Part shown: piece after piece, positions 4,309 through 52,366 of the stretch
Numbering within the stretch: the stretch's first letter is position 1
Layout of the letters: each line of letters opens with the position of its first letter
Source of the DNA: Escherichia coli
GTDB lineage: Bacteria; Pseudomonadota; Gammaproteobacteria; Enterobacterales; Enterobacteriaceae
DNA length: 64,000 bases
Reading direction: 5' to 3' (one strand)
Assembly (NCBI RefSeq): GCF_024502345.1
Contig: NZ_JALDNN010000001.1
Translations under genes and position numbers: made by a program
The notes under the pieces: generated by a model
Told to the model about the DNA's origin: nothing
Database searches by the model: none
What the model saw: only the letters and a program-made list of their open reading frames with translations

Positions 4309-4414
4309 ATAAATATTCCCTGATAAAACAGCAAAACTTTAAATATCCGCTTATGCTGAAATAATGTCCAGCGGCAGGACGCATTATCAGAATGTATTTA
4401 TATTTATTAAATAA

Positions 4415-4443: not shown

Positions 4444-4462
4444 TTATGTAATTTACATTGAA

Positions 4463-5089
4463 TTATTTTTTCTCGGACAGATATTTCACTGTATCAGCAT
4501 ACTGCTTAACAAAAACATCCATATTGCTGGTATCCATACCCTGCGGATTCAGCTGATATTTACCGTTAACAAACATCGCCGGAACGCCACGCAATTGCAC
4601 GTCAGCTGCAGCTTTTTCCTGCTGAGCGACCAGAGATTTGACCACGAAGCTGTTCCACGCCGCGTCGTACTCTTCACCTTTAATACCTGCGTTGATAAAT
4701 ACATCGCGGATATCAGATGCTGAACGAATGGTCTGGGTTTTCTGTACGCCTTCAAACAGCGGAACAGTGACTTTGTCTTCCACGCCCAGCGCCATCGCCA
4801 CAGCCCATGCCTGAGTCAGATCTTTGCCCAGGTCACCACCCATGAAGTCGACGTGGTATTTAGTCATCTTCACGCCTTCCGGCAGTTTTTTCTTCACATT
4901 ATCAGAAATATGCAGAACTTCTTCAAACTGATAGCAGTGCGGACAGAAGAAAGAGAAAAACTCCAGCACTTGCGGCGCGCCAGCTACCGGTTTTTCCAGG
5001 GTAGTGTACTGTTTACCATCTTCATACTGCGCCGCCGATGCGCTAAACGCTAAAACTAAACCAGCCAGCGCCAGCCAAATCTTTTTCAT
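4463..5089 (-). CDS. dsbA: periplasmic thiol:disulfide oxidoreductase DsbA
   Basis: 208 aa, signal peptide, CPHC active-site motif ([12 protein letters not shown]). Confidence 0.95.
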
Positions 5090-5105
5090 GATCTACTCTC
5101 TCCGA

Positions 5106-6092
5106 TTAATACATAGGTGTTAATTGTAAAGGGGGTTCTTGTAGAACTTTTGCCTGTTCTATAAAAGTCGCCGTTTGTCGCAGCCAGTAATCTTCCCCGG
5201 TTAACCACGGGAAATTTTTCGGGAACGCGGGATCAGCCCAACGCCGCATTAGCCAGGCAAGATAATAAACCAAACGCATGGCGCGTAAAGGTTCAATCAG
5301 TCCGATTTCAGCGGTGTCGAACTCGCTAAATTCTTCATAAGCTTCAATAATAGTTTCCAGTTGCATCCGCTGCTCGGCTTTATCGCCATTGAGCAACATC
5401 CACAAATCCTGAATAGCTGGACCATTACGTGCATCATCCAGATCAACAAACATTGGACCATCGCGCCAGAGAATATTCCCGGCGTGGCAGTCTCCATGTA
5501 GCCGCAGAACGGTGAAATCTTCCCGCCAGTGTGCTGTAACGGCGGCGATCAGCTCATCTGTCGCTTTCAGGAATGCCGCTTTCAACCCGGAAGGTATCAG
5601 TGTAGCGTCCTCAAACAGCTTGCGTGGCTCAATGAGATATTCATTCAGACCGATGGTCGGGCGATGGATAAAAAGCTGTTTGTGCCCCGTCTGGTGCATA
5701 CGCCCTAAATAACGCCCAACCGCTTCCGTCTGATCGATATTATCAGCTTCGAACTGGCGACCACCGACGCTTGGAAAAACAGCGAAATAAAATCCCTGAT
5801 GATTCAATAAAGTCTGACCGTTAAAGGCCACAGGTGCTGCGACCGGAACTTCATCATTTACCAGCTGCAACGCAAATTGATGTTCTTCGAGGATTTGATC
5901 GGCTGTCCAACGTTCAGGGCGATAAAATTTGACGACAAAACGTCGACGCTCTTCGTCCTGAAATTGATAGACACGGTTTTCATAGCTGTTAAGCGGGGTA
6001 AGACCGGAATCCACCCGGATCCCTTGCTCAAACAGAGCGTCCATGATGGTATCCGGGTGTAGTGTCTGGAAAGTAAAAGCGCTGTTGTTCAT
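5106..6092 (-). CDS. srkA: stress-response Ser/Thr kinase SrkA (YihE/RdoA)
   Basis: 328-aa ORF; kinase-like HGDCHAGNILW motif; immediately upstream of dsbA. Confidence 0.9.
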   Translation of the reverse strand: MNNSAFTFQTLHPDTIMDALFEQGIRVDSGLTPLNSYENRVYQFQDEERRRFVVKFYRPERWTADQILEEHQFALQLVNDEVPVAAPVAFNGQTLLNHQGFYFAVFPSVGGRQFEADNIDQTEAVGRYLGRMHQTGHKQLFIHRPTIGLNEYLIEPRKLFEDATLIPSGLKAAFLKATDELIAAVTAHWREDFTVLRLHGDCHAGNILWRDGPMFVDLDDARNGPAIQDLWMLLNGDKAEQRMQLETIIEAYEEFSEFDTAEIGLIEPLRAMRLVYYLAWLMRRWADPAFPKNFPWLTGEDYWLRQTATFIEQAKVLQEPPLQLTPMY

Positions 6093-6168
6093 CCCATCAT
6101 CCGGAAAACATTACGAATGATGAAGGATATCATTTCACGATGATTTTGGTGGCGCCGCTTACAAGCTT

Positions 6169-6438
6169 TTACTCTTTAATTACGCCGCGAGCGCGTAACA
6201 GCGCCGTTTTGAAGTCTTCTTCATAATCTTTCTGCAAACCCGGGATCACCGCATCTTTCGCGGAATCACGCATTTTCAGGTGATAGATCAGAATGTCATC
6301 CGTCAAATCCGCCAGTTCGCCGTCAAAACCTGACTCTTTCGCCAGTTTCTGCAAAAATTGCAACAGGTTAAGGTCTGGCTCTTTTTGCCAGGCTGGCTGG
6401 AGGAGTTCAATAACTTCATTCAGACGTTTACATTTCAT
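6169..6438 (-). CDS. yihD: DUF1040 protein YihD
   Basis: ORF 6169..6468; the likely start is MKCKRLNEV at 6438 (89 aa). Confidence 0.8.
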
Positions 6439-6507
6439 AGTGATGCTCCTTACTCTTGAGACAGACACGTTAGCAGGGTCAATCCCACAATAAAAGAGGC
6501 GATATCG

Positions 6508-7092
6508 GTGAATCTGATGACGACGATAACAGGCGTTGTGCTGGCAGGCGGTAAAGCCAGACGAATGGGCGGCGTAGATAAAGGATTGCTGGAATTAAAT
6601 GGCAAACCGCTGTGGCAACATGTCGCTGACGCGCTTATGGCGCAGCTCTCTCACGTCGTGGTTAATGCTAATCGTCATCAGGAAATCTATCAGGCAAGCG
6701 GTCTGAAAGTGATTGAAGATTCACTGGCGGATTACCCAGGCCCTCTGGCAGGAATGCTTTCAGTAATGCAGCAGGAAGCAGGCGAGTGGTTTTTGTTTTG
6801 TCCGTGCGATACTCCTTATATTCCCGAGGATTTAGCAGCCCGGCTTAATCATCAGCGCAAAGATGCGCCTGTCGTGTGGGTCCATGACGGTGAACGCGAT
6901 CACCCGACTATTGCTCTGGTAAACCGCGCTATTGAGCCTTTATTACTGGAATATCTGCAAGCAGGAGAACGCCGGGTAATGGCATTTATGCGTCTGGCTG
7001 GCGGTCATGCGGTTGATTTCAGCGATCATAAAGATGCATTTGTTAACGTGAATACGCCAGAGGAGCTTGCCCGATGGCAGGAAAAACGATGA
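6508..7092 (+). CDS. mobA: molybdenum cofactor guanylyltransferase MobA
   Basis: 194 aa with [11 protein letters not shown] nucleotide-binding motif. Confidence 0.9.
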
Positions 7093-7601
7093 TACCGTTA
7101 CTCGCCTTTGCCGCGTGGAGTGGTACCGGAAAAACTACGCTTTTGAAAAAACTGATCCCGGCATTATGCGCCAGAGGGATCCGTCCAGGGCTGATTAAGC
7201 ATACGCACCATGATATGGATGTTGATAAGCCAGGCAAAGATAGCTATGAGCTGCGCAAGGCTGGCGCGGCACAAACCATCGTTGCCAGCCAGCAACGATG
7301 GGCCTTGATGACGGAAACACCAGACGAAGAAGAGCTGGATCTACAGTTTCTCGCAAGTCGAATGGATACCTCAAAGCTGGATTTGATTCTGGTCGAAGGG
7401 TTTAAGCATGAAGAGATCGCAAAGATTGTGCTGTTTCGCGATGGAGCCGGACATCGACCTGAAGAATTAGTGATAGACAGGCATGTTATTGCTGTAGCCA
7501 GTGATGTGCCGCTTAATCTTGATGTCGCATTACTGGATATTAATGATGTTGAGGGGCTGGCTGATTTTGTGGTGGAGTGGATGCAAAAGCAGAACGGATA
7601 A
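7074..7601 (+). CDS. mobB: molybdopterin-guanine dinucleotide biosynthesis adapter MobB
   Basis: 175 aa with Walker A motif (GTGKTT); overlaps the mobA 3' end. Confidence 0.9.
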
Positions 7602-7609
7602 GCAAGAGT

Positions 7610-7645
7610 AGGCTGGATAAGACGCGCCAGCGTCGCATCCGGCAT
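7610..7645. repeat. REP (repetitive extragenic palindrome) element
   Basis: ggctggataagacgcgccagcgtcgcatccggcat, the canonical REP palindrome. Confidence 0.7.
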
Positions 7646-7659
7646 TTTTCTGCACCAGC

Positions 7660-7690
7660 GCAAAAAGGCCCAGTCTTCCGACCGGGCCTT
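7660..7690 (-). terminator. rRNA operon terminator downstream of 5S
   Basis: GC-rich hairpin (aaggcccggtcggaagactgggcctt) followed by a U-run on the minus-strand transcript, just past the 5S 3' end. Confidence 0.65.
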
Positions 7691-7702
7691 CTGCTTAATT
7701 TG

Positions 7703-7822
7703 ATGCCTGGCAGTTCCCTACTCTCGCATGGGGAGACCCCACACTACCATCGGCGCTACGGCGTTTCACTTCTGAGTTCGGCATGGGGTCAGGTGGGACC
7801 ACCGCGCTACGGCCGCCAGGCA
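7703..7822 (-). rRNA. rrfA: 5S ribosomal RNA
   Basis: Reverse complement matches E. coli 5S (TGCCTGGCGGC...GGAACTGCCAGGCAT), 120 nt. Confidence 0.95.
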
Positions 7823-7912
7823 AATTCTGTTTTATCAGACCGCTTCTGCGTTCTGATTTAATCTGTATCAGGCTGAAAATCTTCTCTCATCCGCCAAAAC
7901 ATCTTCGGCGTT

Positions 7913-10817
<2,905 letters not shown>

Positions 10818-11000
10818 TCACAACCCGAAGATGTTTCTTGCGATCCATCATCGTGTTGCGAAAATTTGAGAGACTCACGAACAACTTTCGTTGTTCAGTG
10901 TTTCAATTTTCAGCTTGATCCAGATTTTTAAAGAGCAAAACTTCGCAGTGAACCTTTTCAGGTACACTCTGAAGTATTTTTTATTTAATCACTACAGAGA

Positions 11001-11076
11001 TGGTGGAGCTATGCGGGATCGAACCGCAGACCTCCTGCGTGCAAAGCAGGCGCTCTCCCAGCTGAGCTATAGCCCC
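11001..11076 (-). tRNA. alaT: tRNA-Ala (UGC), spacer tRNA
   Basis: Reverse complement GGGGCTATAGCTCAGCTGGGAGAGCGCCTGCTTTGCACGCAGGAGGTCTGCGGTTCGATCCCGCATAGCTCCACCA. Confidence 0.95.
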
Positions 11077-11118
11077 ATAACATGTAGTTAAAACCTCTTC
11101 AAATTTGCCGTGCAAATT

Positions 11119-11195
<77 letters not shown>

Positions 11196-11263
11196 GTAGA
11201 GGTTTTACTGCTCATTTTCATCAGACAATCTGTGTGAGCACTGCAAAGAACGCTTCTTTAAGG

Positions 11264-12805
<1,542 letters not shown>

Positions 12806-12976
12806 AAGTTTGATGCTCAAAGAATTAAACTTCGTAATGAATTACGTGTTCACTCTTGAGACTTGGTATTCATTTTTCGTCTTGCGACGTTAAGAATCCG
12901 TATCTTCGAGTGCCCACACAGATTGTCTGATAAATTGTTAAAGAGCAGTGCCGCTTCGCTTTTTCTCAGCGGCGCG

Positions 12977-13131
12977 GGGTGTGCATAATACGCTTTCCCG
13001 CCACAGAGTCAAGCATTTATTTTTGCTTTCTCTGTTGAGATTCTCAGGAGAACCCCGCTGACCCGGCGGCGTGTTTGCCGTTGTTCCGTGTCAGTGGTGG
13101 CGCATTATAGGGAGTTATTCCGGCCTGACAA
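12977..13131 (-). promoter_or_regulatory. tandem rRNA promoters P1 and P2
   Basis: On the minus strand: P1 -35 TTGTCA (13126-13131) and -10 TATAAT (13104-13109) with a 16-bp spacer; P2 -35 TTGACT (13007-13012) and -10 TATTAT (12985-12990). Confidence 0.8.
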
Positions 13132-13180
13132 GAGGAAATTTAAAATAATTTTCTGACCGCGCATTTTTTATTCTTTATGC

Positions 13181-13726
13181 TTATTTCAGCGTCGGTTTGT
13201 CGGTTAAATGGGCGATTTCTCGGGCGAAATTCGCCACCTGCTCCCAATCGGTATAGACAACTTCTTTGCGCGTATCCGTTTCACCGCCTGACATCTTCAT
13301 AATCAGCTTGATCATAAAACGGTCGTACCAGCGATAACGTGGGTAACGCAGCGCCCCGGCAATGACCGCGCAGCGATCGGGACGCCATTGCGAGTTCATC
13401 AGAAACTTCCGCGCGTAGCTGTTGGTCTGTGGAGTACGCTTCTCCGGTTTGCGCGCCACCAGGTTTACGGAATAAAAGGCGCTCGGCATCGAATTCAGTC
13501 GCGTCGCATGTTTTTTGACAAATTCCTGGAACGCAGAGTGGTAGTGACCATAGCGAATAGAAGCACCAATGACCACACGGTCATAATTTTCCCATTGTGG
13601 TTCTTCAATGCGGTGCACATTGGCGACATCCGTCTGGATCCCCAGTTCTTTCAGTTCCGAAGCCAGGTAGGAGGCAATCTCGCGCGTTTGTCCGTCCCTT
13701 GTTGAGAAAAGAATTAATGTTTTCAC
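13181..13726 (-). CDS. hemG: protoporphyrinogen oxidase HemG (flavodoxin-like)
   Basis: 181 aa; flavodoxin-like N-terminus [14 protein letters not shown]. Confidence 0.9.
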
Positions 13727-13737
13727 GTATTACTCCA

Positions 13738-15189
13738 TCATTCACGCCAGAAAGTCGGGGTAAAGAGCACCAGCAATGTAAAGACCTCGAGACGACCAAA
13801 CAGCATGTTGGCAATCAGGATCCATTTAGCCACCGGGTTCATACTGGTAAAGTTATCAGCAACCACGCCAAGCCCTGGCCCCAGGTTATTCAATGTCGCA
13901 ACAACTGAGGCAAAGGCAGAAAAATCATCCACGCCCGTGGCGATAATCGCCAGCATACTGACAATAAACACCAATGCATAGGCGGAGAAAAATCCCCAAA
14001 CGGCTTCGAGGATACGTTCCGGCAGTGCGCGATTCCCCAGCTTAATGCTATAGACGGCGTTCGGATGCACCAGTCGTTTCAGCTCACGGTTCCCCTGCTT
14101 AAACAGCAGCAGGATGCGGATCACTTTCAGGCCACCGCCCGTTGATCCGGCGCAACCGCCGATAAAAGCTGAACATAAAAGCAGTACCGGCAAAAAGAGC
14201 GGCCAGCGGGCAATGCTGTCAGTCGTAAACCCGGCGGTTGTCGCCATCGATACCACCTGGAAAAACGCCTGGTTAATTGTCATCAGCGCCGAACTGTAGA
14301 CATTATGAAACCACAGTACGAGTGTACAAATAACCACCAGCGTAAACTGTACGCCGATAAACATGCGAAATTCCGGATCGCGCCAATAAACCTTCAGACT
14401 ACGCCCACTTAACAGTGAAAAGTGCAGACCGTAGTTACAGCCGGAGATCAGCAGGAAGATAGCAATGATAGTGTTAATAGTCGGGCTGTCGAAATAACCG
14501 ATACTGGCATCATGTGTCGAGAAGCCGCCAATAGCGATAGTCGCAAAGCTATGGCCGATGGCATCAAAGGCATCCATTCCGGCAAACCACAACGCCAGCG
14601 CACAGGCGACGGTCAGCAAGACATAAATCAACCACAGGGTTTTCGCCGTTTCCGCAATTCGCGGGCGCATTTTGTTATCTTTCAGCGGGCCGGGCATTTC
14701 TGCGCGATAGAGCTGCATCCCACCCACGCCGAGGATAGGCAGTATCGCAACCGCTAACACGATGATCCCCATCCCGCCAAACCATTGCAGCATCTGGCGA
14801 TAAAAGAGGATGGCATGAGGGAGCGAATCCAGCCCCACCAGCGTAGTGGCCCCGGTGGTGGTCAGGCCAGAGAAAGATTCAAAAAACGCATCGGTAATCG
14901 TGAGGTTCGGGCTTTCCGAGAAGATAAAAGGGAGCGCACCGACACTACCCAGCACGGTCCAGAACAGCACCACTATCAGAAACCCCTCACGGGATTTCAG
15001 TTCGCCCTTCTCTTTACGGTTCGGCCACCACAGCATAGAACCAATGGCGAGGGCGACAAAAAAGGTCTGGGTAAAAGCGCGGCCCGCTCCATCCCGGTAG
15101 ATGAGTGCTACCAGCCCAGGGATAATCATGGTCCCTGAAAATAAGATGACCAGTAGTCCAACGATTCGGGTAATGGCGCGAAAATGCAT
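13738..15189 (-). CDS. trkH: potassium uptake protein TrkH
   Basis: 483-aa polytopic membrane protein; synteny with hemG and pepQ. Confidence 0.9.
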   Translation of the reverse strand: MHFRAITRIVGLLVILFSGTMIIPGLVALIYRDGAGRAFTQTFFVALAIGSMLWWPNRKEKGELKSREGFLIVVLFWTVLGSVGALPFIFSESPNLTITDAFFESFSGLTTTGATTLVGLDSLPHAILFYRQMLQWFGGMGIIVLAVAILPILGVGGMQLYRAEMPGPLKDNKMRPRIAETAKTLWLIYVLLTVACALALWFAGMDAFDAIGHSFATIAIGGFSTHDASIGYFDSPTINTIIAIFLLISGCNYGLHFSLLSGRSLKVYWRDPEFRMFIGVQFTLVVICTLVLWFHNVYSSALMTINQAFFQVVSMATTAGFTTDSIARWPLFLPVLLLCSAFIGGCAGSTGGGLKVIRILLLFKQGNRELKRLVHPNAVYSIKLGNRALPERILEAVWGFFSAYALVFIVSMLAIIATGVDDFSAFASVVATLNNLGPGLGVVADNFTSMNPVAKWILIANMLFGRLEVFTLLVLFTPTFWRE

Positions 15190-15227
15190 CTCTGCCGCTT
15201 CCTTAGTTCTGCAAAACGAAGTGGGGA

Positions 15228-15842
15228 TTATTCTTCAATCGCTAACAATTGCAATGAACCACGGCTAAAATCCGCCAGCTTTGCGGAAAATTCAGCCACT
15301 TTCGCCGCCGGAAGCGCCACCCGCAGCAGAACGAATGCCTGATAATCACTGTTGATAATTTTGCCGTCACACTGCCCCAGCAACGCTTCAATGCCGGTTA
15401 ACTGATGATATTCACATTGCAAAGTATATTCGGTTAATGGCGTCTTGCGTTGGGTCGTTAGCTGGCGCAGCGCCTGATTCACGCCGCCGCCATACGCTTT
15501 CACTAACCCACCGGTGCCAAGCAATATGCCGCCGTAGTAGCGCACTACCACAGCGGTAATTTCCCCGACGCCGCTGCCCATTAGCTGGGCGAGCATCGGT
15601 TTACCTGCCGTTCCTGCCGGCTCCCCGTCGTCAGAGAAACCCAGCTGTTGAGAATCATCCGGCGCACCCGCCACCCACGCCACGCAATGGTGGCGGGCAT
15701 CGGGGTGTTCTGCCCGCACCGATTCAACAAACGCTTTCGCCGCCTCAACGCCATCGGTATGCGCCAACATCGTTATGAAGCGGCTTTTTTTGATCTCTTC
15801 AACGACCGTGACCGGTGCCGCAGGAATTAACCAGCTTTCCAT
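15228..15842 (-). CDS. yigZ: IMPACT-family protein YigZ
   Basis: ORF 15228..15845; the likely start is [10 protein letters not shown] at 15842, overlapping the pepQ stop. Confidence 0.85.
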   Translation of the reverse strand: MESWLIPAAPVTVVEEIKKSRFITMLAHTDGVEAAKAFVESVRAEHPDARHHCVAWVAGAPDDSQQLGFSDDGEPAGTAGKPMLAQLMGSGVGEITAVVVRYYGGILLGTGGLVKAYGGGVNQALRQLTTQRKTPLTEYTLQCEYHQLTGIEALLGQCDGKIINSDYQAFVLLRVALPAAKVAEFSAKLADFSRGSLQLLAIEE

Positions 15843-17173
15843 CACGCCAGTTTCAGATCCCGGGTCATGTTTTCCACGTTGTTTTCGTGGATCACCACGT
15901 TGTCTTCGATACGAATGCCGCCGAACGGTTTCAGTGCTTCAATTTTCTGCCAGTTGAAGTGCTTGCTGAACTGCCCTTCACGCCACGGTGCCAGTAGCGA
16001 TTCAATGAAGTAGATACCCGGTTCGATGGTTAACACCATACCCGGCTGGAGAATACGGGTGCAGCGCAGGTACGGATATTTTGCCGGTGCCGCGAGGTGT
16101 GTACCGCTATCATCCTGCATAAAACCGGCTACGTCATGCACCTGCAGGCCCAGCGGATGACCGATACCGTGCGGCATAAACGGTCCGGTGAGATCGTTTT
16201 CGACCATCGCTTCTTCACTCATATCGGTGATGATTTGATGTTTACGCAGCAGTTTGGCGATGCGCTGATGGAACTGGATGTGGTAATCCACATAGCTAAC
16301 GCCTGCTTTCATGGTGGCGATCAGCGCCAGTTGTTCATCATTTACGTCTTTCACCAGCTGTGCGTAGTCGTTGTCGCTTTTTGCCGACCAGGTACGAGTC
16401 AGGTCAGCCGCATAGCCGTTATATTCGGCCCCGGCATCCAGCAGGAAGCTGCGCATCTCTTCCGGTGCCTGGTGGTCCAGTTTGGTGTAATGCAGCACCG
16501 CAGCGTGTTCGTTAAGCGCCACAATGTTGCTGTAAGGTACGTCGGTATCACGATGACCGGTCGCGGTCAGATAGGCAATGTTGATATCGAACTCGCTCAT
16601 GCCAGAACGGAACGCTTCTTCTGCCGCGCGATGACCGTTGACCGCCATTTTCTGCGCTTCACGCATACAGGCCAGTTCGTACTCGGTTTTGAAGGAGCGG
16701 TAGTAATGCAGGTAGTCGATCACCCCTTTCGGGTTGATGTTGCTGGCCTCAATACCCAGTTGCAGCGCACGTTCCGGCACCGGACCGATATAACCGATAT
16801 TGCCGCGCGCAGCAGGCAGCAGGCTACCAATGCCATCGGCTTTCGGCAGCGCGATCACTTCCACATCTTCAGTCCAGAAGGAGGTCGGCAGCGGTTCGAC
16901 GTTGTGCCAGTAATCAACCGGCAGATAGAACCACAGTTTCGGCTTGTTCACGCCATCCACCAGCAACCAGCAGTTTGGCACCTGAGTTACCGGCACCCAC
17001 GCTTTGAATTGCGGGTTCACTTTAAACGGATAGGGATGATCGTCGAGAAAAACGTTGAACAGCTCGCCGGAGTGAATAAGTAATGCATCCAGCTTGAAGC
17101 GCGCCAGCGCATCGCGAGTCCGTTCTTGTAAGGTAGCTATATGATTTTTATAGAGCGAGGCCAGTGATTCCAT
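15842..17173 (-). CDS. pepQ: Xaa-Pro dipeptidase (prolidase) PepQ
   Basis: 443 aa, M24 metallopeptidase motifs. Confidence 0.9.
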
Positions 17174-17320
17174 TTTTTACCCTTCTGTTTTTTTGACCTT
17201 AAGTCTCCGCATCTTAGCACATCGTTCATCCAGAGCGTGATTTCTGCCGAGCGTGATCAGATCGGCATTTCTTTAATCTTTTATTTGCATATTTTTAACA
17301 CAAAATACAGACTTCGATGC

Positions 17321-17337
17321 ATCTGGTACGACCAGAT
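17321..17337. promoter_or_regulatory. FadR operator in the fadBA promoter
   Basis: Palindrome ATCTGGTACGACCAGAT ~25 bp upstream of the fadB start; fits the FadR consensus. Confidence 0.7.
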
Positions 17338-17362
17338 CACCTTGCGGATTCAGGAGACTGAC

Positions 17363-19552
17363 ATGCTTTACAAAGGCGACACCCTGTACCTTGACTGGCT
17401 GGAAGATGGCATTGCCGAACTGGTATTTGATGCCCCAGGTTCAGTTAATAAACTCGACACTGCGACCGTCGCCAGCCTCGGCGAGGCCATCGGCGTGCTG
17501 GAACAGCAATCAGATCTAAAAGGGCTGCTGCTGCGTTCGAACAAAGCAGCCTTTATCGTCGGTGCTGATATCACCGAATTTTTGTCCCTGTTCCTCGTTC
17601 CTGAAGAACAGTTAAGTCAGTGGCTGCACTTTGCCAATAGCGTGTTTAATCGCCTGGAAGATCTGCCGGTGCCGACCATTGCTGCCGTCAACGGCTATGC
17701 GCTGGGTGGTGGCTGCGAATGCGTGCTGGCGACCGATTATCGTCTGGCGACGCCGGATCTGCGCATCGGTCTGCCGGAAACCAAACTGGGCATCATGCCG
17801 GGCTTTGGCGGTTCTGTACGTATGCCACGTATGCTGGGCGCTGACAGTGCGCTGGAAATCATTGCCGCCGGTAAAGATGTCGGCGCGGATCAGGCGCTGA
17901 AAATCGGTCTGGTGGATGGGGTAGTCAAAGCAGAAAAACTGGTTGAAGGCGCAAAGGCGGTTTTACGCCAGGCCATTAACGGCGACCTCGACTGGAAAGC
18001 GAAACGCCAGCCGAAGCTGGAACCGCTAAAACTGAGCAAGATTGAAGCCACCATGAGCTTCACCATCGCTAAAGGAATGGTCGCGCAAACGGCGGGGAAA
18101 CATTATCCGGCCCCCATCACCGCAGTAAAAACCATTGAAGCTGCGGCCCGTTTTGGTCGTGAAGAAGCCTTAAATCTGGAAAACAAAAGTTTTGTCCCGC
18201 TGGCGCATACCAACGAAGCTCGCGCACTGGTCGGCATTTTCCTTAACGATCAATATGTAAAAGGCAAAGCGAAGAAACTCACCAAAGACGTTGAAACCCC
18301 GAAACAGGCCGCGGTGCTGGGTGCAGGCATTATGGGCGGCGGCATCGCTTACCAGTCTGCGTGGAAAGGCGTGCCGGTTGTCATGAAAGATATCAACGAC
18401 AAGTCGTTAACCCTCGGCATGACCGAAGCCGCGAAACTGCTGAACAAGCAGCTTGAGCGCGGCAAGATCGATGGTCTGAAACTGGCTGGCGTGATCTCCA
18501 CAATCCACCCAACGCTCGACTACGCCGGGTTTGACCGCGTGGATGTTGTGGTAGAAGCGGTTGTCGAAAACCCGAAAGTGAAAAAAGCCGTACTGGCAGA
18601 AACCGAACAAAAAGTACGCCCGGATACCGTGCTGGCGTCTAACACTTCAACCATTCCTATCAGCGAACTGGCCAACGCGCTGGAACGCCCGGAAAACTTC
18701 TGCGGAATGCACTTTTTTAACCCGGTACACCGGATGCCGTTGGTAGAAATTATTCGCGGCGAGAAAAGCTCCGACGAAACCATCGCGAAAGTTGTCGCCT
18801 GGGCGAGCAAGATGGGCAAGACGCCGATTGTGGTTAACGACTGCCCCGGCTTCTTTGTTAACCGCGTGCTGTTCCCGTATTTCGCCGGTTTCAGCCAGCT
18901 GCTGCGCGACGGCGCGGATTTCCGCAAGATCGACAAAGTGATGGAAAAACAGTTTGGCTGGCCTATGGGTCCGACATATCTGCTGGATGTCGTGGGCATT
19001 GATACCGCGCATCACGCTCAGGCTGTCATGGCAGCAGGCTTCCCGCAGCGGATGCAGAAAGATTACCGCGATGCCATCGACGCGCTGTTTGATGCCAACC
19101 GCTTTGGTCAGAAGAACGGCCTCGGTTTCTGGCGTTATAAAGAAGACAGCAAAGGTAAGCCGAAGAAAGAAGAAGACGCCGCCGTTGAAGACCTGCTGGC
19201 AGAAGTGAGCCAGCCGAAGCGCGATTTCAGCGAAGAAGAGATTATCGCCCGCATGATGATCCCGATGGTCAACGAAGTGGTGCGCTGTCTGGAGGAAGGC
19301 ATTATCGCCACTCCGGCGGAAGCGGATATGGCGCTGGTCTACGGCCTGGGCTTCCCTCCGTTCCACGGCGGCGCGTTCCGCTGGCTGGACACCCTCGGTA
19401 GCGCAAAATACCTCGATATGGCACAGCAATATCAGCACCTCGGCCCGCTGTATGAAGTGCCGGAAGGTCTGCGTAATAAAGCGCGTCATAACGAACCGTA
19501 CTATCCTCCGGTTGAGCCAGCCCGTCCGGTTGGCGACCTGAAAACGGCTTAA
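17363..19552 (+). CDS. fadB: fatty-acid oxidation complex alpha subunit (enoyl-CoA hydratase / 3-hydroxyacyl-CoA dehydrogenase)
   Basis: ORF 17237..19552; the real start is [12 protein letters not shown] at 17363 (729 aa). Confidence 0.95.
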
Positions 19553-33181: not shown

Positions 33182-33657
33182 ATGAGTGATATTATTTACC
33201 TGACCATAACCGGAGAACAACAAGGATGTATTTCCTCTCGTTGTGGAACGAGCGCATCAATAGGTAATCGCTGGCAGATTGGCCATGATGATGAAATCTT
33301 CGCGTTCTCGCTCTCTAATAGTATTACGAATACAGGCAAAGGGTCATAATTGCATGGCCTTAGTTTCTGTAAATTGATTGACAAAAGCTCCCCGTTACTT
33401 ATTAACGCTATTAACAATAACGAGCAGTTGTTCATGGAGTTTGACTTCTATCGGATCAATAGGTTTGGTCGATGGGAGAAATATTACAACATTCAACTCC
33501 GCGGCGCGCTCTTATCAGCAATCAATCACCTGTTTACTGAGAACAATCTGGATACAGAAGCCATCACTGTCAGTTATGAATATATACTCTCCAGGCATCT
33601 GATTGCTAATACTGAATTTAGTTATTTGGCATTTCCCGATAACTACAACCGTCTGTT
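33182..33657 (+). pseudogene. Hcp-family (T6SS tube protein) domain, N-terminal part of a disrupted Hcp-fused toxin gene
   Basis: ATG at 33182 gives MSDIIYLTITGEQQG...; the frame hits TAA at 33347-33349 and resumes in the same frame with the Hcp-like stretch FCKLIDKSSPLL. The reading frame then runs into the IS903 end at 33658. Confidence 0.7.
33649..33657. repeat. IS903 target-site duplication, left copy (CCGTCTGTT)
   Basis: The identical 9-mer recurs at 34715-34723, immediately outside the two inverted repeats. Confidence 0.9.
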
Positions 33658-34714
33658 GGCTTTGTTGAATAAATCGAACTTTTGCTGAGTTGAAGGATCA
33701 GATCACGTATCTTCCCGACAACGCAGACCGTTCCGTGGCAAAGCAAAAGTTCAAAATCACCAACTGGCCCACCTACAATAAAGCCCTCATCAACCGTGGC
33801 TCCATAACTTTCTGGCTGGATGATGAAGCTATTCAGGCCTGGTATGAGTCAGCAACACCTTCTTCACGAGGCAGACCTCAGCGCTATTCTGACCTTGCCA
33901 TCACGACTGTGCTGGTCATTAAACGCGTATTCAGGCTGACCCTGCGCGCTGCGCAGGGCTTTATTGATTCCATTTTTTCTCTGATGAACGTTCCGCTACG
34001 CTGCCCGGATTACAGCTGTGTCAGCAGGCGGGCAAAGTCGGTTAATGTCAGTTTCAAAACGCCCACCCGGGGTGAAATCGCACACCTGGTAATTGATTCC
34101 ACCGGGCTGAAGGTCTTCGGTGAAGGCGAGTGGAAAGTCAAAAAGCATGGCCAGGAACGCCGCCGTATCTGGCGTAAGCTGCATCTCGCCGTTGACAGTA
34201 AAACACATGAAATCATCTGCGCTGACCTGTCGCTGAACAACGTTACGGACTCAGAGGCCTTCCCCGGGTTAATCCGGCAAACCCACCGGAAAATCAGGTC
34301 AGCCGCCGCCGATGGCGCTTACGATACCCGGCTATGTCACGATGAACTGCGGCGTAAGAAAATCAGCGCGCTTATCCCTCCCCGAAAAGGTGCGGGTTAC
34401 TGGCCCGGTGAATATGCAGACCGTAACCGTGCAGTGGCTAATCAGCGAATGACCGGGAGTAATGCGCGGTGGAAATGGACAACAGATTACAACCGTCGCT
34501 CGATAGCGGAAACGGCGATGTACCGGGTAAAACAGCTGTTCGGGGGTTCACTGACACTGCGTGACTACGATGGTCAGGTTGCAGAGGCTATGGCCCTGGT
34601 ACGAGCGCTGAACAAAATGACGAAAGCAGGTATGCCTGAAAGCGTGCGTATTGCCTGAAAACACAACCCGCTACGGGGGAGACTTACCCGAAATCTGATT
34701 TATTCAACAAAGCC
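33658..34714 (+). mobile_element. IS903-type insertion sequence (IS5 family), 1057 bp
   Basis: Terminal 18-bp inverted repeats GGCTTTGTTGAATAAATC (33658-33675, and reverse complement at 34697-34714); internal 322-aa ORF; flanked by a 9-bp direct repeat. Confidence 0.9.
33690..34658 (+). CDS. IS903-type DDE transposase
   Basis: 322-aa ORF matching my recollection of the IS903/IS102 transposase. Confidence 0.85.
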   Translation: MKDQITYLPDNADRSVAKQKFKITNWPTYNKALINRGSITFWLDDEAIQAWYESATPSSRGRPQRYSDLAITTVLVIKRVFRLTLRAAQGFIDSIFSLMNVPLRCPDYSCVSRRAKSVNVSFKTPTRGEIAHLVIDSTGLKVFGEGEWKVKKHGQERRRIWRKLHLAVDSKTHEIICADLSLNNVTDSEAFPGLIRQTHRKIRSAAADGAYDTRLCHDELRRKKISALIPPRKGAGYWPGEYADRNRAVANQRMTGSNARWKWTTDYNRRSIAETAMYRVKQLFGGSLTLRDYDGQVAEAMALVRALNKMTKAGMPESVRIA

Positions 34715-34723
34715 CCGTCTGTT
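34715..34723. repeat. IS903 target-site duplication, right copy (CCGTCTGTT)
   Basis: Exact 9-bp match to 33649-33657. Confidence 0.9.
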
Positions 34724-47946: not shown

Positions 47947-47992
47947 GAATTAACATGGGTAGGCCGTTTAATGAGCCTACCCACTGACTTAT

Positions 47993-48337
47993 TTATCTTT
48001 TTTTGAAAAAAATTAAGATAAGAAAAAGAACAATATTTGTTACAGGAAGTACCCCCAAAACTCCCCAGTACTTACTCCATCCTAGAGACATCGTATATCT
48101 ACCAAGGATTTGACAAAACCCAAAACTTAACCCTATACCTATACTTCTTAAATTTAATGTCGTAGTCAGGCTTAAAATAAATAGAACAAGGATGGTAATA
48201 GCCCACCACAATAACCATGCCTTAACAAAATCAGATTTTTTGCTGTAAGGTTCTTTACCCAAGAACAACTGCCAAAAGTTACCATTCCCCATATAGAATC
48301 CATTCCCCAAGATATTGTTTATAGAATAAAAATACAT
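47993..48337 (-). CDS. hypothetical small inner-membrane protein (possibly the yigG equivalent)
   Basis: 114-aa ORF with two or three hydrophobic segments in an AT-rich stretch; strand and identity not verified. Confidence 0.35.
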   Translation of the reverse strand: MYFYSINNILGNGFYMGNGNFWQLFLGKEPYSKKSDFVKAWLLWWAITILVLFILSLTTTLNLRSIGIGLSFGFCQILGRYTMSLGWSKYWGVLGVLPVTNIVLFLILIFFKKR

Positions 48338-48616
48338 TCCAATTATATTTAATTAAAATATACCCCATCAATAAAAACTTACACACTCTAAATTACTACT
48401 GTATAGTTATCAATGCAAAGACTGCTATATTGCATATATATATGCAAACCTCATAATTCAGGTAATATATATATTCAAAACAATTATATATAAAAAACAA
48501 TGTAAAAAATATTCAAATCATCCATCAGAAATATATTCTACCCATCCAGGCTTGAGCATTTATCACGCTTTCAGTTCATAATCTATACATTAACATCATG
48601 GTCAATATTAATAACT

Positions 48617-48895
48617 TTGAATGATATCAACCTGGCTTTGAGTTTTATTCTGGTTATTAATAATACCTATGTAAATATCAATATTGGAGCAAAAAGAATA
48701 AGAGATACTGGATGTAAGGCAATCTACTTTGTATTGATTTCATTGGGTTTGACACTTTTTTCTATTATCTCTGCAGCAATTGAAGGGGTGAGATGTGAGT
48801 CATTAAGCGTCCAACTCAACGTGGCATGGATATTATTCACAACAATTATGTTATCTGCGATTCCCTCGGCTAAAATGTCGCTGTCAGCACACTAA
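48617..48895 (+). CDS. hypothetical small membrane protein (possibly the yigF equivalent)
   Basis: 92-aa ORF, hydrophobic, AT-rich context. Confidence 0.3.
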   Translation: MNDINLALSFILVINNTYVNINIGAKRIRDTGCKAIYFVLISLGLTLFSIISAAIEGVRCESLSVQLNVAWILFTTIMLSAIPSAKMSLSAH

Positions 48896-48920
48896 CTTAC
48901 TCACAGCGACATCGTATAGT

Positions 48921-49047
48921 TACAGCCAGTTCTTGCGCTTAAAGTACAGATACGGTGCCAGGCCCGCGAGGATCATAAAGATAATCGCGCCTGGGTAGCC
49001 GAAACTCCACTTCAGTTCTGGCATAAACTCAAAGTTCATGCCATAGC
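48921..49047 (-). pseudogene. displaced duplicate of the corA 3' end (last ~40 codons)
   Basis: ~127 bp, ~94% identical to the corA 3' end at 51419-51545; encodes ...[43 protein letters not shown] with no upstream corA body. Confidence 0.8.
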
Positions 49048-49209
49048 TGGAGGCAATCGGCGTAGGAAAAAGTTTCCTAATCGGTAAATTCAATATTTTG
49101 TTATTAACAATGAGCAAGACCAATCATTAACGACGTTCTCTTCAGAGATGTAATGAAAAAATGTGAAGTGTACTTCTTTTTTAAATATTTTTTTACCCTA
49201 GCATTTGTT

Positions 49210-49218
49210 CTCAAATTG
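49210..49218. repeat. IS1 target-site duplication, left copy (CTCAAATTG)
   Basis: Identical 9-mer at 49987-49995. Confidence 0.9.
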
Positions 49219-49233
49219 GGTAATGACTCCAAC

Positions 49234-49737
49234 TTATTGATAGTGTTTTATGTTCAGATAATGCCCGATGACTTTGTCATGCAGCTCCACCGATTTTGAG
49301 AACGACAGCGACTTCCGTCCCAGCCGTGCCAGGTGCTGCCTCAGATTCAGGTTATGCCGCTCAATTCGCTGCGTATATCGCTTGCTGATTACGTGCAGCT
49401 TTCCCTTCAGGCGGGATTCATACAGCGGCCAGCCATCCGTCATCCATATCACCACGTCAAAGGGTGACAGCAGGCTCATAAGACGCCCCAGCGTCGCCAT
49501 AGTGCGTTCACCGAATACGTGCGCAACAACCGTCTTCCGGAGCCTGTCATACGCGTAAAACAGCCAGCGCTGGCGCGATTTAGCCCCGACGTATCCCCAC
49601 TGTTCGTCCATTTCCGCGCAGACGATGACGTCACTGCCCGGCTGTATGCGCGAGGTTACCGACTGCGGCCTGAGTTTTTTAAATGGCGGAAAATCGTGTT
49701 GAGGCCAACGCCCATAATGCGGGCGGTTGCCCGGCAT
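49234..49737 (-). CDS. insB: IS1 transposase InsB reading frame
   Basis: 167 aa, begins [16 protein letters not shown]. Confidence 0.9.
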
Positions 49738-49931
49738 CCAACGCCATTCATGGCCATATCAATGATTTTCTGGTGCGTACCGGGTTGAGAAGCGGTGTAA
49801 GTGAACTGCAGTTGCCATGTTTTACGGCAGTGAGAGCAGAGATAGCGCTGATGTCCGGCGGTGCTTTTGCCGTTACGCACCACCCCGTCAGTAGCTGAAC
49901 AGGAGGGACAGCTGATAGAAACAGAAGCCAC
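49656..49931 (-). CDS. insA: IS1 InsA
   Basis: 91 aa, begins [42 protein letters not shown]. Confidence 0.9.
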
Positions 49932-49986
49932 TGGAGCACCTCAAAAACACCATCATACACTAAATCAGTAAGTTGGCAGCATCACC

Positions 49987-49995
49987 CTCAAATTG
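49987..49995. repeat. IS1 target-site duplication, right copy (CTCAAATTG)
   Basis: Exact match to 49210-49218. Confidence 0.9.
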
Positions 49996-50121
49996 ATATT
50001 GAGCTTAAATATAACCAAGGAAAATGTAAATGAATAACACATTACTTCCATCAATTAATATTCCCTGTACACTTTTCGAAACTATTAGTTTATTTGATGA
50101 TTATTCTGCTGATGATATGCA

Positions 50122-50145
50122 ATATGGTGATATGGTGATATGGTA
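50122..50145. repeat. 8-bp tandem repeat (ATATGGTG x3, last copy imperfect) spanning the start codon of ORF 50140
   Basis: atatggtg atatggtg atatggta; each unit contains an ATG, and only the third is in frame with the long ORF. Confidence 0.8.
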
Positions 50146-50886
50146 GAACAAGATTTTCTCTCACTCGGCCTAAGCGATATCTCAGCAAAAGTTGATCCTT
50201 ACAGACTTATTAAATACCATTTCCCTAGCCCAGGTTCTATTAATGTTGCTTTTAGTGCCTCAAGTTCCGGAACAAAAATATCACAACGTGAATGCACTGA
50301 TATTTTATTTGCAGAAATGAAAGAACTAGCAAAAATGTTTTCCTTTTTTGGACAATATAAAACACTTATCGAAGATCTGATTGAACATTTTAGATATGGA
50401 AATGGCAGCAATTTTCATAGCCAACAATTAAATTTATCTTTTCATGAAAAAATAAATAAATATGGTTATAATAGTCCAATACGAATAATCAAAGAATGTA
50501 TCGAAAATGGCATTAATTCAACTCCCTCGACAGGATACCAACCTCTTATCCTGCAAAGCATTAAAACCAAATTACTTTCATCAAGACTAAATAAATTTAA
50601 TGACTTCGAGGACAGTTTTAATGGCTTAGGAATCAGTGTTCATGATATTTCAGCTCAAAAAATATCTCTTTTAAGTTTTCAAAAATACGCTATAGGATGG
50701 AGTGCAACAATTCATTTTGTAGCACAGGACCACTTCGGTCTTGATGTAACTGATATCAAAAACAAGACTTACAGCAAATATAGATTTTTTCGCATATGGT
50801 TCTTTTTACAACGGCATAAAGACTTTGCTTTCAAACCTTTTTTCACCAATTTTAACACTATCGAAAGAATCGAAAATTATCTATGA
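50140..50886 (+). CDS. hypothetical protein, 248 aa, no signal peptide (candidate effector/toxin of a two-gene module)
   Basis: Long ORF in AT-rich DNA; its stop overlaps the next ORF's start (ATGA at 50883-50886). Confidence 0.5.
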   Translation: MVEQDFLSLGLSDISAKVDPYRLIKYHFPSPGSINVAFSASSSGTKISQRECTDILFAEMKELAKMFSFFGQYKTLIEDLIEHFRYGNGSNFHSQQLNLSFHEKINKYGYNSPIRIIKECIENGINSTPSTGYQPLILQSIKTKLLSSRLNKFNDFEDSFNGLGISVHDISAQKISLLSFQKYAIGWSATIHFVAQDHFGLDVTDIKNKTYSKYRFFRIWFFLQRHKDFAFKPFFTNFNTIERIENYL

Positions 50887-51374
50887 AAAGCAAACTCCAG
50901 AAAATTATATTATGTTTATTTCTTCTATGCTGCATCTATAATTTATGGACATTGCGTCCTGTACAGATTTTGTATACATACTCTGATGCTGGCAATTCAG
51001 TCTTTCTGGTCGTTGATCATCTGCCATGGACTGACAGCGATAAAATAAATTGGTATCTGAAGCATCAGAATGAAATTAAAAATCAACATCCCCTACCAGA
51101 AGGTAGTTGGCATACCTGGTATGTCATTGATATCGGTAATGGCTTCACTGACTATAAAAAATATATCGAAGGGCCGTATGAAGATCTCTACTGTTTCCCG
51201 ACAATTAAGAGCAATGATAATTGCATCGTGAAAAATTACTTAATGGTTATTAATGAATACCCTTATCGTAACACTCATATTGTTATTAACGATTTTACTG
51301 AGTATCAATTAACACAAGAAAATAAAATAGAGCGAGTTTTCAATCCGCATGACTTTAAAAAAGACAATTTTTAG
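50883..51374 (+). CDS. hypothetical exported/membrane-anchored protein, 163 aa (candidate immunity partner)
   Basis: N-terminal MKSKLQKIILCLFLLCCIYNLWTL is a signal or anchor sequence; translationally coupled to the upstream ORF. Confidence 0.5.
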   Translation: MKSKLQKIILCLFLLCCIYNLWTLRPVQILYTYSDAGNSVFLVVDHLPWTDSDKINWYLKHQNEIKNQHPLPEGSWHTWYVIDIGNGFTDYKKYIEGPYEDLYCFPTIKSNDNCIVKNYLMVINEYPYRNTHIVINDFTEYQLTQENKIERVFNPHDFKKDNF

Positions 51375-51415
51375 AAATAAGCCGGATAAAAAAATAGCTT
51401 TATCCGGCACTCATA

Positions 51416-52366
51416 TTACAACCAGTTCTTCCGCTTAAAGTACAGATACGGTGCCAGGCCCGCGAGGATCATAAAGATAATCGCGCCTGGGTAGCCGAAA
51501 CTCCACTTCAACTCTGGCATAAATTCAAAGTTCATCCCGTAGCTGGAAGCCACCAGCGTCGGTGGCAGGAACACCACGGATACCACCGAGAAGATTTTGA
51601 TGATGCGGTTCTGCTCGATGTTGATAAAGCCCATCGCCGCCTGCATCAGGAAGTTCACCTTCTGGAACAGGGATTCGTTATGCGGCAGCAGGGATTCGAT
51701 ATCTCGCAGGATTTCACGCGCCTGCTCCAGTTGCCCACCCGGTAAACGCGCCTTGCGTACCAGGAAGTTGAGCGCACGCTGGGTATCCATCAGACACAGG
51801 CGAACTTTCCAGCCGATATCTTCCAGTTCCGCCAGCGTGGAGAGCGCCTCATCGTACTCATCGCCCTGATGCCCTTCCATAATTACCCGGCTCAACTGCT
51901 CCAGATCGCTGTAGATATTTTCAATTTCATCTGCCAGCTGTTCGATTTTGGTTTCGAACAGATCCAACAGCAGCTCGTAGGCGTTACCGTCCACCATTGA
52001 CTGGCTACGGGCGCGCATACGATACAGACGGAATGCAGGCAGTTCACGCTCACGCAGAGTAAACAGACGACCATCACGGATGGTAAATGCCACAGTGGAG
52101 TTACCGGCGTGATCTTCCGCATCTTCAAAGAAGAAGAAGGAGTGAATATGCAGGCCGTCATCGTCTTCAAAGAAACGTGCCGATGCTTCGATGTCTTCCA
52201 GTTCCGGGCGGGTTGCCAGGCTCTGGCCAAGTTCAGATTGTACGCGCAGTCGCTCGTCGTCGTCCGGTTCGACAAGATCAATCCATACTGCATTTACAAG
52301 GGGTTGTGACTCTTCGACTTCCAGCCGGGTCAGTCGGTTATTTTCCAGTTGAAATGCGCTCAGCAT
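51416..52366 (-). CDS. corA: magnesium/cobalt transport protein CorA
   Basis: ORF 51416..52381; the start is [16 protein letters not shown] at 52366 (316 aa); GMN motif (YGMNF) and two C-terminal TM helices. Confidence 0.95.

What the first reader, a model, noticed from the sequence alone, without database searches (positions are those of the whole stretch)
49210..49995. IS1 copy with a perfect 9-bp target duplication inside the corA islet
The 768-bp IS1 (insA and insB on the minus strand) is flanked by CTCAAATTG on both sides, marking a simple transposition event. It sits between the orphan corA tail and the two-gene module and could influence the module's expression. Both IS elements in this window lie inside accessory islets rather than in backbone genes.
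Basis: seen in the sequence. Interest (0 to 1): 0.35.

Follow-up and report, generated by a model that had tools for sequence, protein, structure and literature searches.

The report
Ordinary IS1 insertion upstream of toxin-immunity pair
This is an intact copy of the well-known bacterial jumping gene IS1 that recently landed, with its usual 9-base target duplication, just in front of an already broken toxin/immunity gene pair; the call is correct but the feature is ordinary.

Summary
A 768-bp IS1 lies at 49219-49986, with insA and insB' on the minus strand. It is flanked by CTCAAATTG at 49210-49218 and 49987-49995, the only two copies of that 9-mer in the window.

A near-isogenic draft genome (1 mismatch in 8,418 bp, no gaps) and many E. 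coli genomes have the uninterrupted site with a single CTCAAATTG. The insertion is therefore real and recent.

The element is identical over all 768 bp to widespread "IS1B family" copies. Its inverted repeats, A6C frameshift motif and 232-aa InsAB' transposase are all intact.

The adjacent "two-gene module" is a DUF3289 (colicin M-like T6SS effector) plus DUF943 (immunity) pair.
- Its true start codon is ATG 50030, 34 nt after the duplication.
- The effector gene is frameshifted by an 8-bp tandem duplication that predates the IS1.
- IS1 therefore separates a decaying operon from its upstream DNA.
- It also places the outward -35 box of its IRL 16 bp from a -10-like hexamer. This possible hybrid promoter is untested.

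One modest extra: strain STEC388 carries a different IS1 variant at the same 9-bp target and in the same orientation, on a different target allele. That is an independent hit, so the site is reused.

Novelty: already known. Interest is low.

The parts
49210..49218 (.). Left copy of the 9-bp target-site duplication, CTCAAATTG
   Evidence: A single copy is present at empty sites in L001, L003 and L010.
49219..49986 (-). IS1, 768 bp, complete. It is the 'IS1B family' variant in PGAP naming.
   Evidence: 100% identical over 768 bp to many E. coli chromosomal and plasmid copies. It differs at 7 positions from K-12 IS1A and at 2 from K-12 IS1B/IS1C.
49219..49241 (-). IRR, the terminal inverted repeat at the insB' end
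   Evidence: GGTAATGACTCCAACTTATTGAT. 18 of 23 positions match IRL.
49964..49986 (-). IRL, the terminal inverted repeat at the insA end. It faces the DUF3289 gene.
   Evidence: Reverse complement is GGTGATGCTGCCAACTTACTGAT.
49656..49931 (-). insA, 91 aa: zinc ribbon plus helix-turn-helix repressor
   Evidence: PF03811 at 3e-21 and PF12759 at 1.7e-30.
49674..49680 (-). A6C (AAAAAAC) programmed -1 frameshift motif
   Evidence: Located. Its role is as described in PMC12428005.
49234..49737 (-). insB' frame. After a -1 frameshift it fuses to insA to give the 232-aa InsAB' transposase (49931-49234).
   Evidence: PF03400 DDE_Tnp_IS1 at 2.3e-78. The reconstructed InsAB' scores 243.8 bits against NF033558, cut-off 100.
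49952..49979 (-). Inward promoter-like site overlapping IRL (CTGCCA-16-TATGAT), in the position of the IS1 promoter
   Evidence: Consensus scan. PMC12428005 states that the weak IS1 promoter partly overlaps IRL.
49987..49995 (.). Right copy of the 9-bp target-site duplication, CTCAAATTG
49973..50000 (+). Junction-spanning hybrid promoter-like site. The -35 TTGGCA lies inside IRL, then a 16-nt spacer, then the -10 GATATT (last base of the duplication plus flank). Inferred, not shown to function.
   Evidence: It is absent from the empty site. An outward -35 in the IS1 inverted repeat is documented in PMC8764528 and PMC9330008.
48920..49066 (-). Orphan 3' fragment of corA. It is the left boundary repeat of the effector-immunity islet.
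   Evidence: PF01544 C-terminal match. PGAP annotates it as 'incomplete' corA in relatives. Positions 48916-49051 are 94% identical to the real corA end at 51413-51547.
50030..50886 (+). DUF3289 / YPO3983-family gene (colicin M-like T6SS effector). It is frameshifted here into a 38-aa ORF (50030-50146) and a 248-aa ORF (50140-50886).
   Evidence: PF11692 at 8.8e-73, starting at profile position 30. The intact 282-aa O157:H7 homologue scores 440 bits against TIGR03034. Alignment and translation. Function from PMC11148199 and PMC12135965.
50122..50137 (+). 8-bp tandem duplication (ATATGGTG twice, plus a partial third unit) that causes the frameshift. Intact alleles have one fewer unit.
   Evidence: It is shared with IS1-free L001, L008-L011 and L013-L016.
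50883..51374 (+). DUF943 gene, 163 aa, intact. It is the cognate immunity protein and overlaps the end of the effector gene by 4 nt.
   Evidence: PF06092 at 1.5e-26. The exact protein is listed in 195 blocks of the public collection. Immunity role from PMC11148199.

Best explanation
An intact, autonomous IS1 of the common 'IS1B family' variant transposed recently into a 27% GC intergenic stretch of an accessory islet at the 3' end of corA.

Mechanism of insertion. [quoted passage not shown] It cut the target with a 9-bp stagger, and repair duplicated CTCAAATTG. This mechanism is established for IS1; the footprint is shown here.

Position and target. The insertion point is 34 nt upstream of the start codon of a DUF3289 effector / DUF943 immunity operon, a colicin M-like orphan T6SS pair. 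The effector gene had already been inactivated by an 8-bp tandem duplication before IS1 arrived.

Likely consequences (inferred). The 152 bp of native upstream DNA is moved 777 bp away. IS1 is classically polar (my knowledge), so native transcription of the pair is most likely cut off. Any remaining expression of the intact immunity gene would then depend on an internal promoter, or on a hybrid promoter formed by the outward -35 (TTGGCA) in IRL and GATATT 16 bp downstream.

Site reuse. The same 9-bp target was hit independently in another strain. This fits the known preference of IS1 for AT-rich DNA and for particular sites.
For: Element identity and integrity:
- 768 bp with IS1 inverted repeats.
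- Pfam InsA and DDE_Tnp_IS1 domains.
- A6C motif present, and the fused 232-aa InsAB' passes NF033558 at 243.8 bits against a cut-off of 100.
- 100% identity to many copies elsewhere.

Transposition footprint:
- Perfect 9-bp duplication, which is the only pair of that 9-mer in the window.
- Precise empty sites in relatives.
- A near-isogenic empty site with 1 mismatch in 8,418 bp.

Recency and rarity:
- The junction is absent from 5,426 complete E. coli genomes, apart from the STEC388 site that carries a different target allele.
- It is absent from GTDB representative genomes and JGI metagenomes.

AT-rich target:
- The intergenic region is 27% GC and the islet 23-39% GC, against about 50-58% for the backbone.
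- IS1 prefers AT-rich targets and gives 9-bp duplications in 78% of trapped events (PMC10359306).

Module identity and start:
-, with PMC11148199 and PMC12135965.

Frameshift predates IS1:
- L010 and L001 carry the 8-bp duplication but no IS1.

Hybrid promoter-like site:
- Present only in the filled state.
- Precedent in PMC8764528 and PMC9330008.

Independent reuse of the site:
- STEC388 has CTCGAATTG on both sides of its IS1.
- The G allele is seen at uninterrupted sites in EC19 and 13C1079T.
- The STEC388 IS1 differs from the window copy at 10 positions.
Against: - No transcript data exist, so the effect on the module is inference.
- The promoter scan is at chance level for the region: 3 sites found against 1.9 +/- 1.5 in shuffles.
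- No convincing native promoter could be located in the empty site. 'Displacement of the native promoter' therefore rests on geometry rather than on a mapped promoter.
- In K-12, IS1B/IS1C differ from this copy by 2 nt and were reported to transpose at nearly undetectable rates (PMC12428005). Activity of this exact variant is inferred only from identical copies at many different sites.
- Regional IS1 density in the islet is not above a crude uniform expectation: 14 genomes observed against about 33 expected. This is my arithmetic.
Confidence: 0.9

Rival explanations
1. Neutral passenger. IS1 landed in dispensable AT-rich DNA next to a dead effector gene. The DUF943 immunity gene is expressed from its own internal promoter or not at all, so the insertion changes nothing of consequence.
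For: - The effector was already frameshifted before insertion.
- The islet is absent from K-12 and from about two thirds of E. coli genomes, so it is dispensable.
- The insertion is known in one lineage only.
- The promoter predictions are at chance level.
Against: The insertion lies 34 nt from the start codon. Any upstream promoter must therefore be displaced or split. An outward -35 at correct spacing from a -10-like hexamer exists.
Confidence: 0.45
2. Adaptive activation. The IS1 IRL-flank hybrid promoter, and/or disruption of H-NS silencing of the AT-rich islet as at bgl, switches on the orphan immunity gene. That benefit would explain why IS1 is found repeatedly at or beside this site with IRL facing the operon.
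For: - Three independent IS1 insertions (window, STEC388, EC19) fall within 13 bp, all with IRL facing the operon.
- The junction forms TTGGCA-16-GATATT.
- IS1 hybrid promoters and IS1/IS5 activation of bgl are documented.
Against: - 9 of 10 IS1 insertions across the whole islet share this orientation, including those far from the operon. The orientation is therefore not specific to promoter creation.
- Each insertion is confined to one strain or a small clade among roughly 1,700 islet-bearing genomes, so there is no sign of spread.
- There are no expression data.
Confidence: 0.12
3. The window and STEC388 share one ancestral insertion inherited by descent, so the IS1 is old rather than recent and independent.
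For: Same 9-bp position and same orientation.
Against: - Both repeat copies are A-type in the window and G-type in STEC388, matching the two pre-existing target alleles.
- The IS1 copies differ at 10 positions.
- The left half of the islet differs: yigG-yigF in STEC388 against a different AT-rich segment here.
- A near-isogenic IS1-free relative of the window exists, with 1 SNP in 8.4 kb.
Confidence: 0.03
4. The IS1 arrived by homologous recombination or assembly collapse between IS1 copies rather than by transposition, and the flanking repeat is coincidental.
For: IS1 is multicopy in this species, with a median of about 11 places per genome.
Against: The flanks are colinear with uninterrupted relatives. 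Removing IS1 and one repeat restores their sequence exactly. Recombination between IS copies would give rearranged flanks and mismatched 9-mers, as seen at the second IS1 of strain EC12.
Confidence: 0.01

Closest known systems
IS1 of Escherichia coli / Shigella (K-12 IS1A-IS1F; PGAP 'IS1-like element IS1B family')
   Same: 768 bp; imperfect terminal inverted repeats; insA; A6C -1 frameshift; InsAB' DDE transposase; 9-bp target duplication; AT-rich target. It is identical to many annotated copies (PMC12428005, PMC10359306).
   Different: Nothing structural. The sequence carries 7 substitutions relative to the K-12 'consensus' IS1A/E. It lacks the 2 further substitutions of K-12 IS1B/C.
IS1-generated hybrid (fusion) promoters (Prentki et al. 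1986; afaA in ST131, PMC8764528; acrEF and blaTEM cases listed in PMC9330008)
   Same: The outward -35 box in the IS1 inverted repeat is placed 16 bp from a -10-like hexamer in the flank, upstream of a gene in the correct orientation.
   Different: Here it is only a consensus match (9 of 12) with no transcript evidence, and the first downstream gene is a pseudogene.
IS1/IS5 activation of the silent bgl operon (PMC11043490, abstract seen)
   Same: IS insertion into AT-rich DNA upstream of a horizontally acquired or silent operon.
   Different: No evidence that this islet is H-NS-silenced or that the insertion activates it. At bgl the insertions are selected; here no selection is demonstrated.
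DUF3289-DUF943 effector-immunity pair (T6EC1/T6IC1, PMC11148199; orphan DUF3289 T6SS effector of Aeromonas jandaei, PMC12135965)
   Same: Same Pfam domains in the same order with overlapping genes, standing alone as an orphan pair away from a T6SS cluster.
   Different: The effector gene is frameshifted in this window and only the immunity gene is intact. T6SS dependence in E. coli was not tested.

Membership tests
IS1 family insertion sequence | Length of about 768 bp bounded by imperfect terminal inverted repeats of roughly 23-30 bp | tested here: met
   49219-49986 is 768 bp. 18 of the first 23 positions match between the ends.
IS1 family insertion sequence | insA encoding a zinc-ribbon plus HTH protein | tested here: met
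   PF03811 at 3e-21 and PF12759 at 1.7e-30.
IS1 family insertion sequence | insB' frame with an IS1 DDE domain, reached by a -1 frameshift at A6C to give InsAB' | tested here: met
   PF03400 at 2.3e-78. AAAAAAC lies at 49680-49674. The fused 232-aa protein scores 243.8 bits against NF033558, cut-off 100.
IS1 family insertion sequence | 8- or 9-bp direct target duplication and a precise empty site in relatives | tested here: met
   CTCAAATTG twice. Empty sites in L001, L003 and L010.
IS1 family insertion sequence | Transposition activity of this copy | not testable with these tools
   Indirect only. Identical copies sit at many unrelated sites. K-12 IS1B/C, 2 nt away, were nearly immobile in laboratory assays.
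IS1 hybrid promoter | Outward -35 in the terminal repeat, correctly spaced from a -10 hexamer in the flank, upstream of a co-oriented gene | tested here: met
   TTGGCA-16-GATATT at 49973-50000, with the gene start at 50030. This is a consensus-level match only.
IS1 hybrid promoter | A transcript initiating downstream of the hybrid -10 | not testable with these tools
   No expression data are available.
DUF3289/DUF943 T6SS effector-immunity pair | DUF3289 gene immediately followed by a DUF943 gene | tested here: met
   PF11692 at 8.8e-73 and PF06092 at 1.5e-26, with genes overlapping by 4 nt.
DUF3289/DUF943 T6SS effector-immunity pair | Intact effector reading frame | tested here: not met
   An 8-bp duplication splits the gene into 38-aa and 248-aa ORFs. 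PGAP marks the same allele 'frameshifted' in HCP4S3_I4.
DUF3289/DUF943 T6SS effector-immunity pair | T6SS-dependent delivery and neutralisation by the immunity protein | not testable with these tools
   Shown for homologues only (PMC11148199, PMC12135965).

The most novel reading that the evidence does not exclude
The 9-bp site upstream of the orphan colicin M-like effector/immunity operon is a convergent IS1 target. Insertions with IRL facing the operon would be retained because the IS1-flank hybrid promoter, or relief of silencing of the AT-rich islet, turns on the DUF943 immunity gene. That would protect strains that have lost the toxin from attack by kin still armed with DUF3289.
Probability: 0.08. 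Interest if true: 0.4.

Novelty: already known. Interest (0 to 1): 0.13.

Why it matters
It matters little beyond annotation.
- It dates a very recent IS1 hop in this lineage, since a near-isogenic relative lacks it.
- It corrects the gene model of the adjacent module: true start at 50030, effector frameshifted, immunity gene intact.
- It identifies that module as an orphan T6SS colicin M-like effector/immunity pair.
- It records one reused IS1 target and an orientation skew of IS1 copies in this islet. Both could be followed up cheaply in large genome collections.

Tried and rejected
1. Same junction elsewhere. I searched for the exact left and right junctions in 5,426 complete E. coli genomes, GTDB representative genomes and JGI metagenomes. 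Nothing was found except the STEC388 site with a G-allele target. The source genome could therefore not be identified. The closest complete genomes are only 99.0-99.3% identical over 24 kb.

2. Native promoter of the module. Neither the tool scan nor a relaxed script scan of the empty site gave a convincing plus-strand promoter.

3. Islet as a regional IS1 hot spot. A crude uniform expectation is about 33 genome-occurrences for 2.8 kb, against 14 observed. That gives no regional enrichment, and I ran no formal control.

4. Shared ancestry of the window and STEC388 insertions. Rejected on the target alleles, the IS1 sequence differences and the near-isogenic empty site.

5. Literature search for IS1 with 'hot spot' and 'AT-rich'. 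It mostly returned unrelated papers; usable statements came from PMC10359306, PMC12428005, PMC8764528 and PMC9330008.

6. Two calls (34, 51) failed on a search term that the tool does not allow.

Full report
**Observation.** Reading the window and locating the element ends by script gives a 768-bp element at 49219-49986. It starts GGTAATGACTCC... and ends ...TTGGCAGCATCACC. CTCAAATTG lies directly outside both ends, at 49210-49218 and 49987-49995. These are the only two occurrences of that 9-mer on either strand of the 64-kb window.

**Identity of the element.**
- The minus strand carries a 91-aa InsA (49931-49656) with the InsA zinc-ribbon and HTH domains.
- It also carries a 167-aa insB' frame (49737-49234) with the IS1 DDE domain.
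- The AAAAAAC frameshift motif is intact at 49680-49674.
- A -1 slip there yields a 232-aa InsAB' that scores 243.8 bits against the NCBIfam IS1 transposase equivalog, cut-off 100.
- The ends match each other at 18 of 23 positions as inverted repeats.
- The whole 768 bp is 100% identical to many chromosomal and plasmid copies that PGAP names 'IS1-like element IS1B family'. IS1 of some kind is found in 4,970 of 5,426 complete E. coli genomes.
- Relative to K-12, the copy differs at 7 positions from IS1A and at 2 from IS1B/IS1C.

The anatomy matches the published description of IS1: 768 bp, a weak promoter overlapping IRL, InsA repressor, A6C frameshift, and 8- or 9-bp duplication (PMC12428005).

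**Proof of transposition and timing.**
- Removing IS1 and one repeat copy reproduces the uninterrupted sequence of E. coli HCP4S3_I4 and O157:H7 JEONG-1266, which have one CTCAAATTG followed by ATATTGAGC.
- I looked up contigs that encode the exact DUF943 protein of the window. This returned ten places, none with IS1.
- One of them, L010 from GCA_028436475.1, equals the IS1-free reconstruction at 8,417 of 8,418 positions without a gap. The insertion is therefore very recent on this background.
- Junction-specific searches found no identical junction in 5,426 complete E. coli genomes, in GTDB representative genomes or in JGI metagenomes.
- The closest complete genomes are only 99.0-99.3% identical over the neighbouring 24 kb. 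The source strain is therefore not in that set.

**Context.**
- K-12 has corA followed directly by yigF, yigG and rarD.
- The window, like 1,711 of 5,426 complete E. coli genomes, has an extra low-GC islet at the corA 3' end. Islet GC is 23-39%, against about 50-58% in flanking genes.
- The islet is bounded by a 94%-identical repeat of the last ~136 bp of corA, at 48916-49051 and 51413-51547.
- The 'two-gene module' consists of a DUF3289/YPO3983-family gene and a DUF943 gene.
- Published work shows that DUF3289 is a periplasm-acting, colicin M-like toxin neutralised by DUF943 (PMC11148199). A DUF3289 protein is a bona fide orphan T6SS effector in Aeromonas jandaei (PMC12135965).
- In intact homologues the effector gene starts at the ATG that is window position 50030.
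- In the window an 8-bp tandem duplication (ATATGGTG, 50122-50137) shifts the frame.
- The same duplication is present in IS1-free HCP4S3_I4 and L010. The effector was therefore already broken when IS1 arrived.
- The DUF943 immunity gene (50883-51374) is intact.

**Likely consequences (inference).**
- IS1 sits 34 nt (43 nt counting the duplicated 9-mer) upstream of the start codon. It lies inside a 186-bp, 27% GC intergenic region.
- Any native promoter is therefore split or moved 777 bp away. I could not identify a convincing native promoter.
- IRL faces the operon. Its outward TTGGCA lies 16 bp from GATATT, giving a 9-of-12 promoter-like site that exists only in the filled state.
- IS1 is documented to carry such an outward -35 and to create hybrid promoters when the spacing is right (PMC8764528; PMC9330008).
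- The scan result is at chance level for the region and no expression data exist. This is a hypothesis.
- My ranking: native transcription is lost, with weak or no replacement; next, no meaningful effect; least likely, selected activation.

**Reuse of the site.** I surveyed the genomes that carry IS1 in this islet. Together with the window they give ten independent insertions between window-equivalent positions 47958 and 50662.
- Nine of the ten have insA on the window's minus strand.
- STEC388 carries IS1 at exactly the same 9-bp target and in the same orientation. Both of its repeat copies read CTCGAATTG, which is the allele seen at uninterrupted sites in EC19 and 13C1079T.
- The STEC388 IS1 differs from the window copy at 10 positions. 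This is an independent hit.
- EC19 has a divergent IS1 (53 differences) 13 bp to the right.
- Site-level reuse fits the known loose AT-rich preference of IS1 (PMC10359306).
- At the regional level the islet is not richer in IS1 than a crude uniform expectation.

**Second IS.**
- The other element is at 33658-34714 (1,057 bp), with 33-nt inverted repeats, an IS5-family transposase and the duplication CCGTCTGTT.
- Its empty site in a relative lies inside a tssD (Hcp) pseudogene, followed by a 'colicin' gene, between ysgA and metE.

**Verdict.** The call is correct and carefully located, but the object is a textbook IS1 simple insertion. Novelty: already known. The useful additions are:
- the corrected gene model and identity of the neighbouring module;
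- the order of events, with the frameshift first and IS1 later;
- the near-isogenic empty site;
- the independently reused target.

Noticed in passing
window 33649-34723: Second IS: 1,057 bp at 33658-34714, with 33-nt inverted repeats (GGCTTTGTTGAATAAATCG...), a 322-aa IS5-family transposase and a 9-bp duplication CCGTCTGTT. Size and ends look like IS903/IS102 (from memory). Its empty site in E. coli VREC0864 lies inside a tssD (Hcp) pseudogene followed by a 'colicin' gene. Both IS elements of the window therefore sit in orphan T6SS effector islets.
   Followed up: partly
window 50122-50144: The 8-bp unit ATATGGTG is present as 2.9 copies (frameshifted effector) in the window and in many IS1-free contigs (L001, L008-L011, L013-L016). 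It is present as 1.9 copies (intact gene) in O157:H7 and others. Only one complete RefSeq E. coli genome matches the expanded allele exactly. This could be one old event spread by recombination, or recurrent slippage.
   Followed up: partly
window 48916-49051 and 51413-51547: Direct repeat of the corA 3' end (136 bp, 94% identical) brackets the DUF3289-DUF943 islet. K-12 has no islet and no repeat. This suggests the pair arrived together with a foreign corA tail by recombination at corA.
   Followed up: partly
window-equivalent 47958-50662; loci L002, L004-L006, L017-L020: Ten independent IS1 insertions fall in this islet across E. coli. Nine of ten are in one orientation, with insA co-directional with corA (two-sided binomial p about 0.02, my arithmetic). 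No genome-wide null was computed and the cause is unknown.
   Followed up: no
L019 (E. coli EC12) 3589-4356: A second IS1, in opposite orientation, has no target duplication (CGCCAATTA against CACAACGTG). Window-equivalent 50050-50281 is missing. This looks like an IS1-mediated adjacent deletion of the effector 5' end, and is shared by five related clinical strains.
   Followed up: partly
window 49219-49986: This IS1 variant carries 7 substitutions relative to K-12 IS1A. PMC12428005 says 7 mismatches are common to IS1B/C and IS1D, but I did not compare positions with IS1D. It lacks the 2 extra changes of IS1B/C at IS positions 127 and 704. Identical copies occur at many unrelated sites, although IS1B/C were reported nearly immobile in K-12. 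Those two positions, or the genomic context, may matter for activity.
   Followed up: no
window 47950-48900: In this lineage the yigG-yigF genes of K-12 and STEC388 are replaced by a different 23-35% GC segment. It has a 99/114-aa membrane-like ORF (47993-48337, minus strand) and a 92-aa ORF (48617-48895) with only a weak, sub-threshold NCBIfam hit (PRK11371).
   Followed up: no
L002 and L018: The DUF943 immunity gene is annotated as frameshifted in E. coli 2009C_3689 and O111:H11 88-19539, and the effector is frameshifted or IS-disrupted in several others. The islet is decaying by different routes in different lineages.
   Followed up: no
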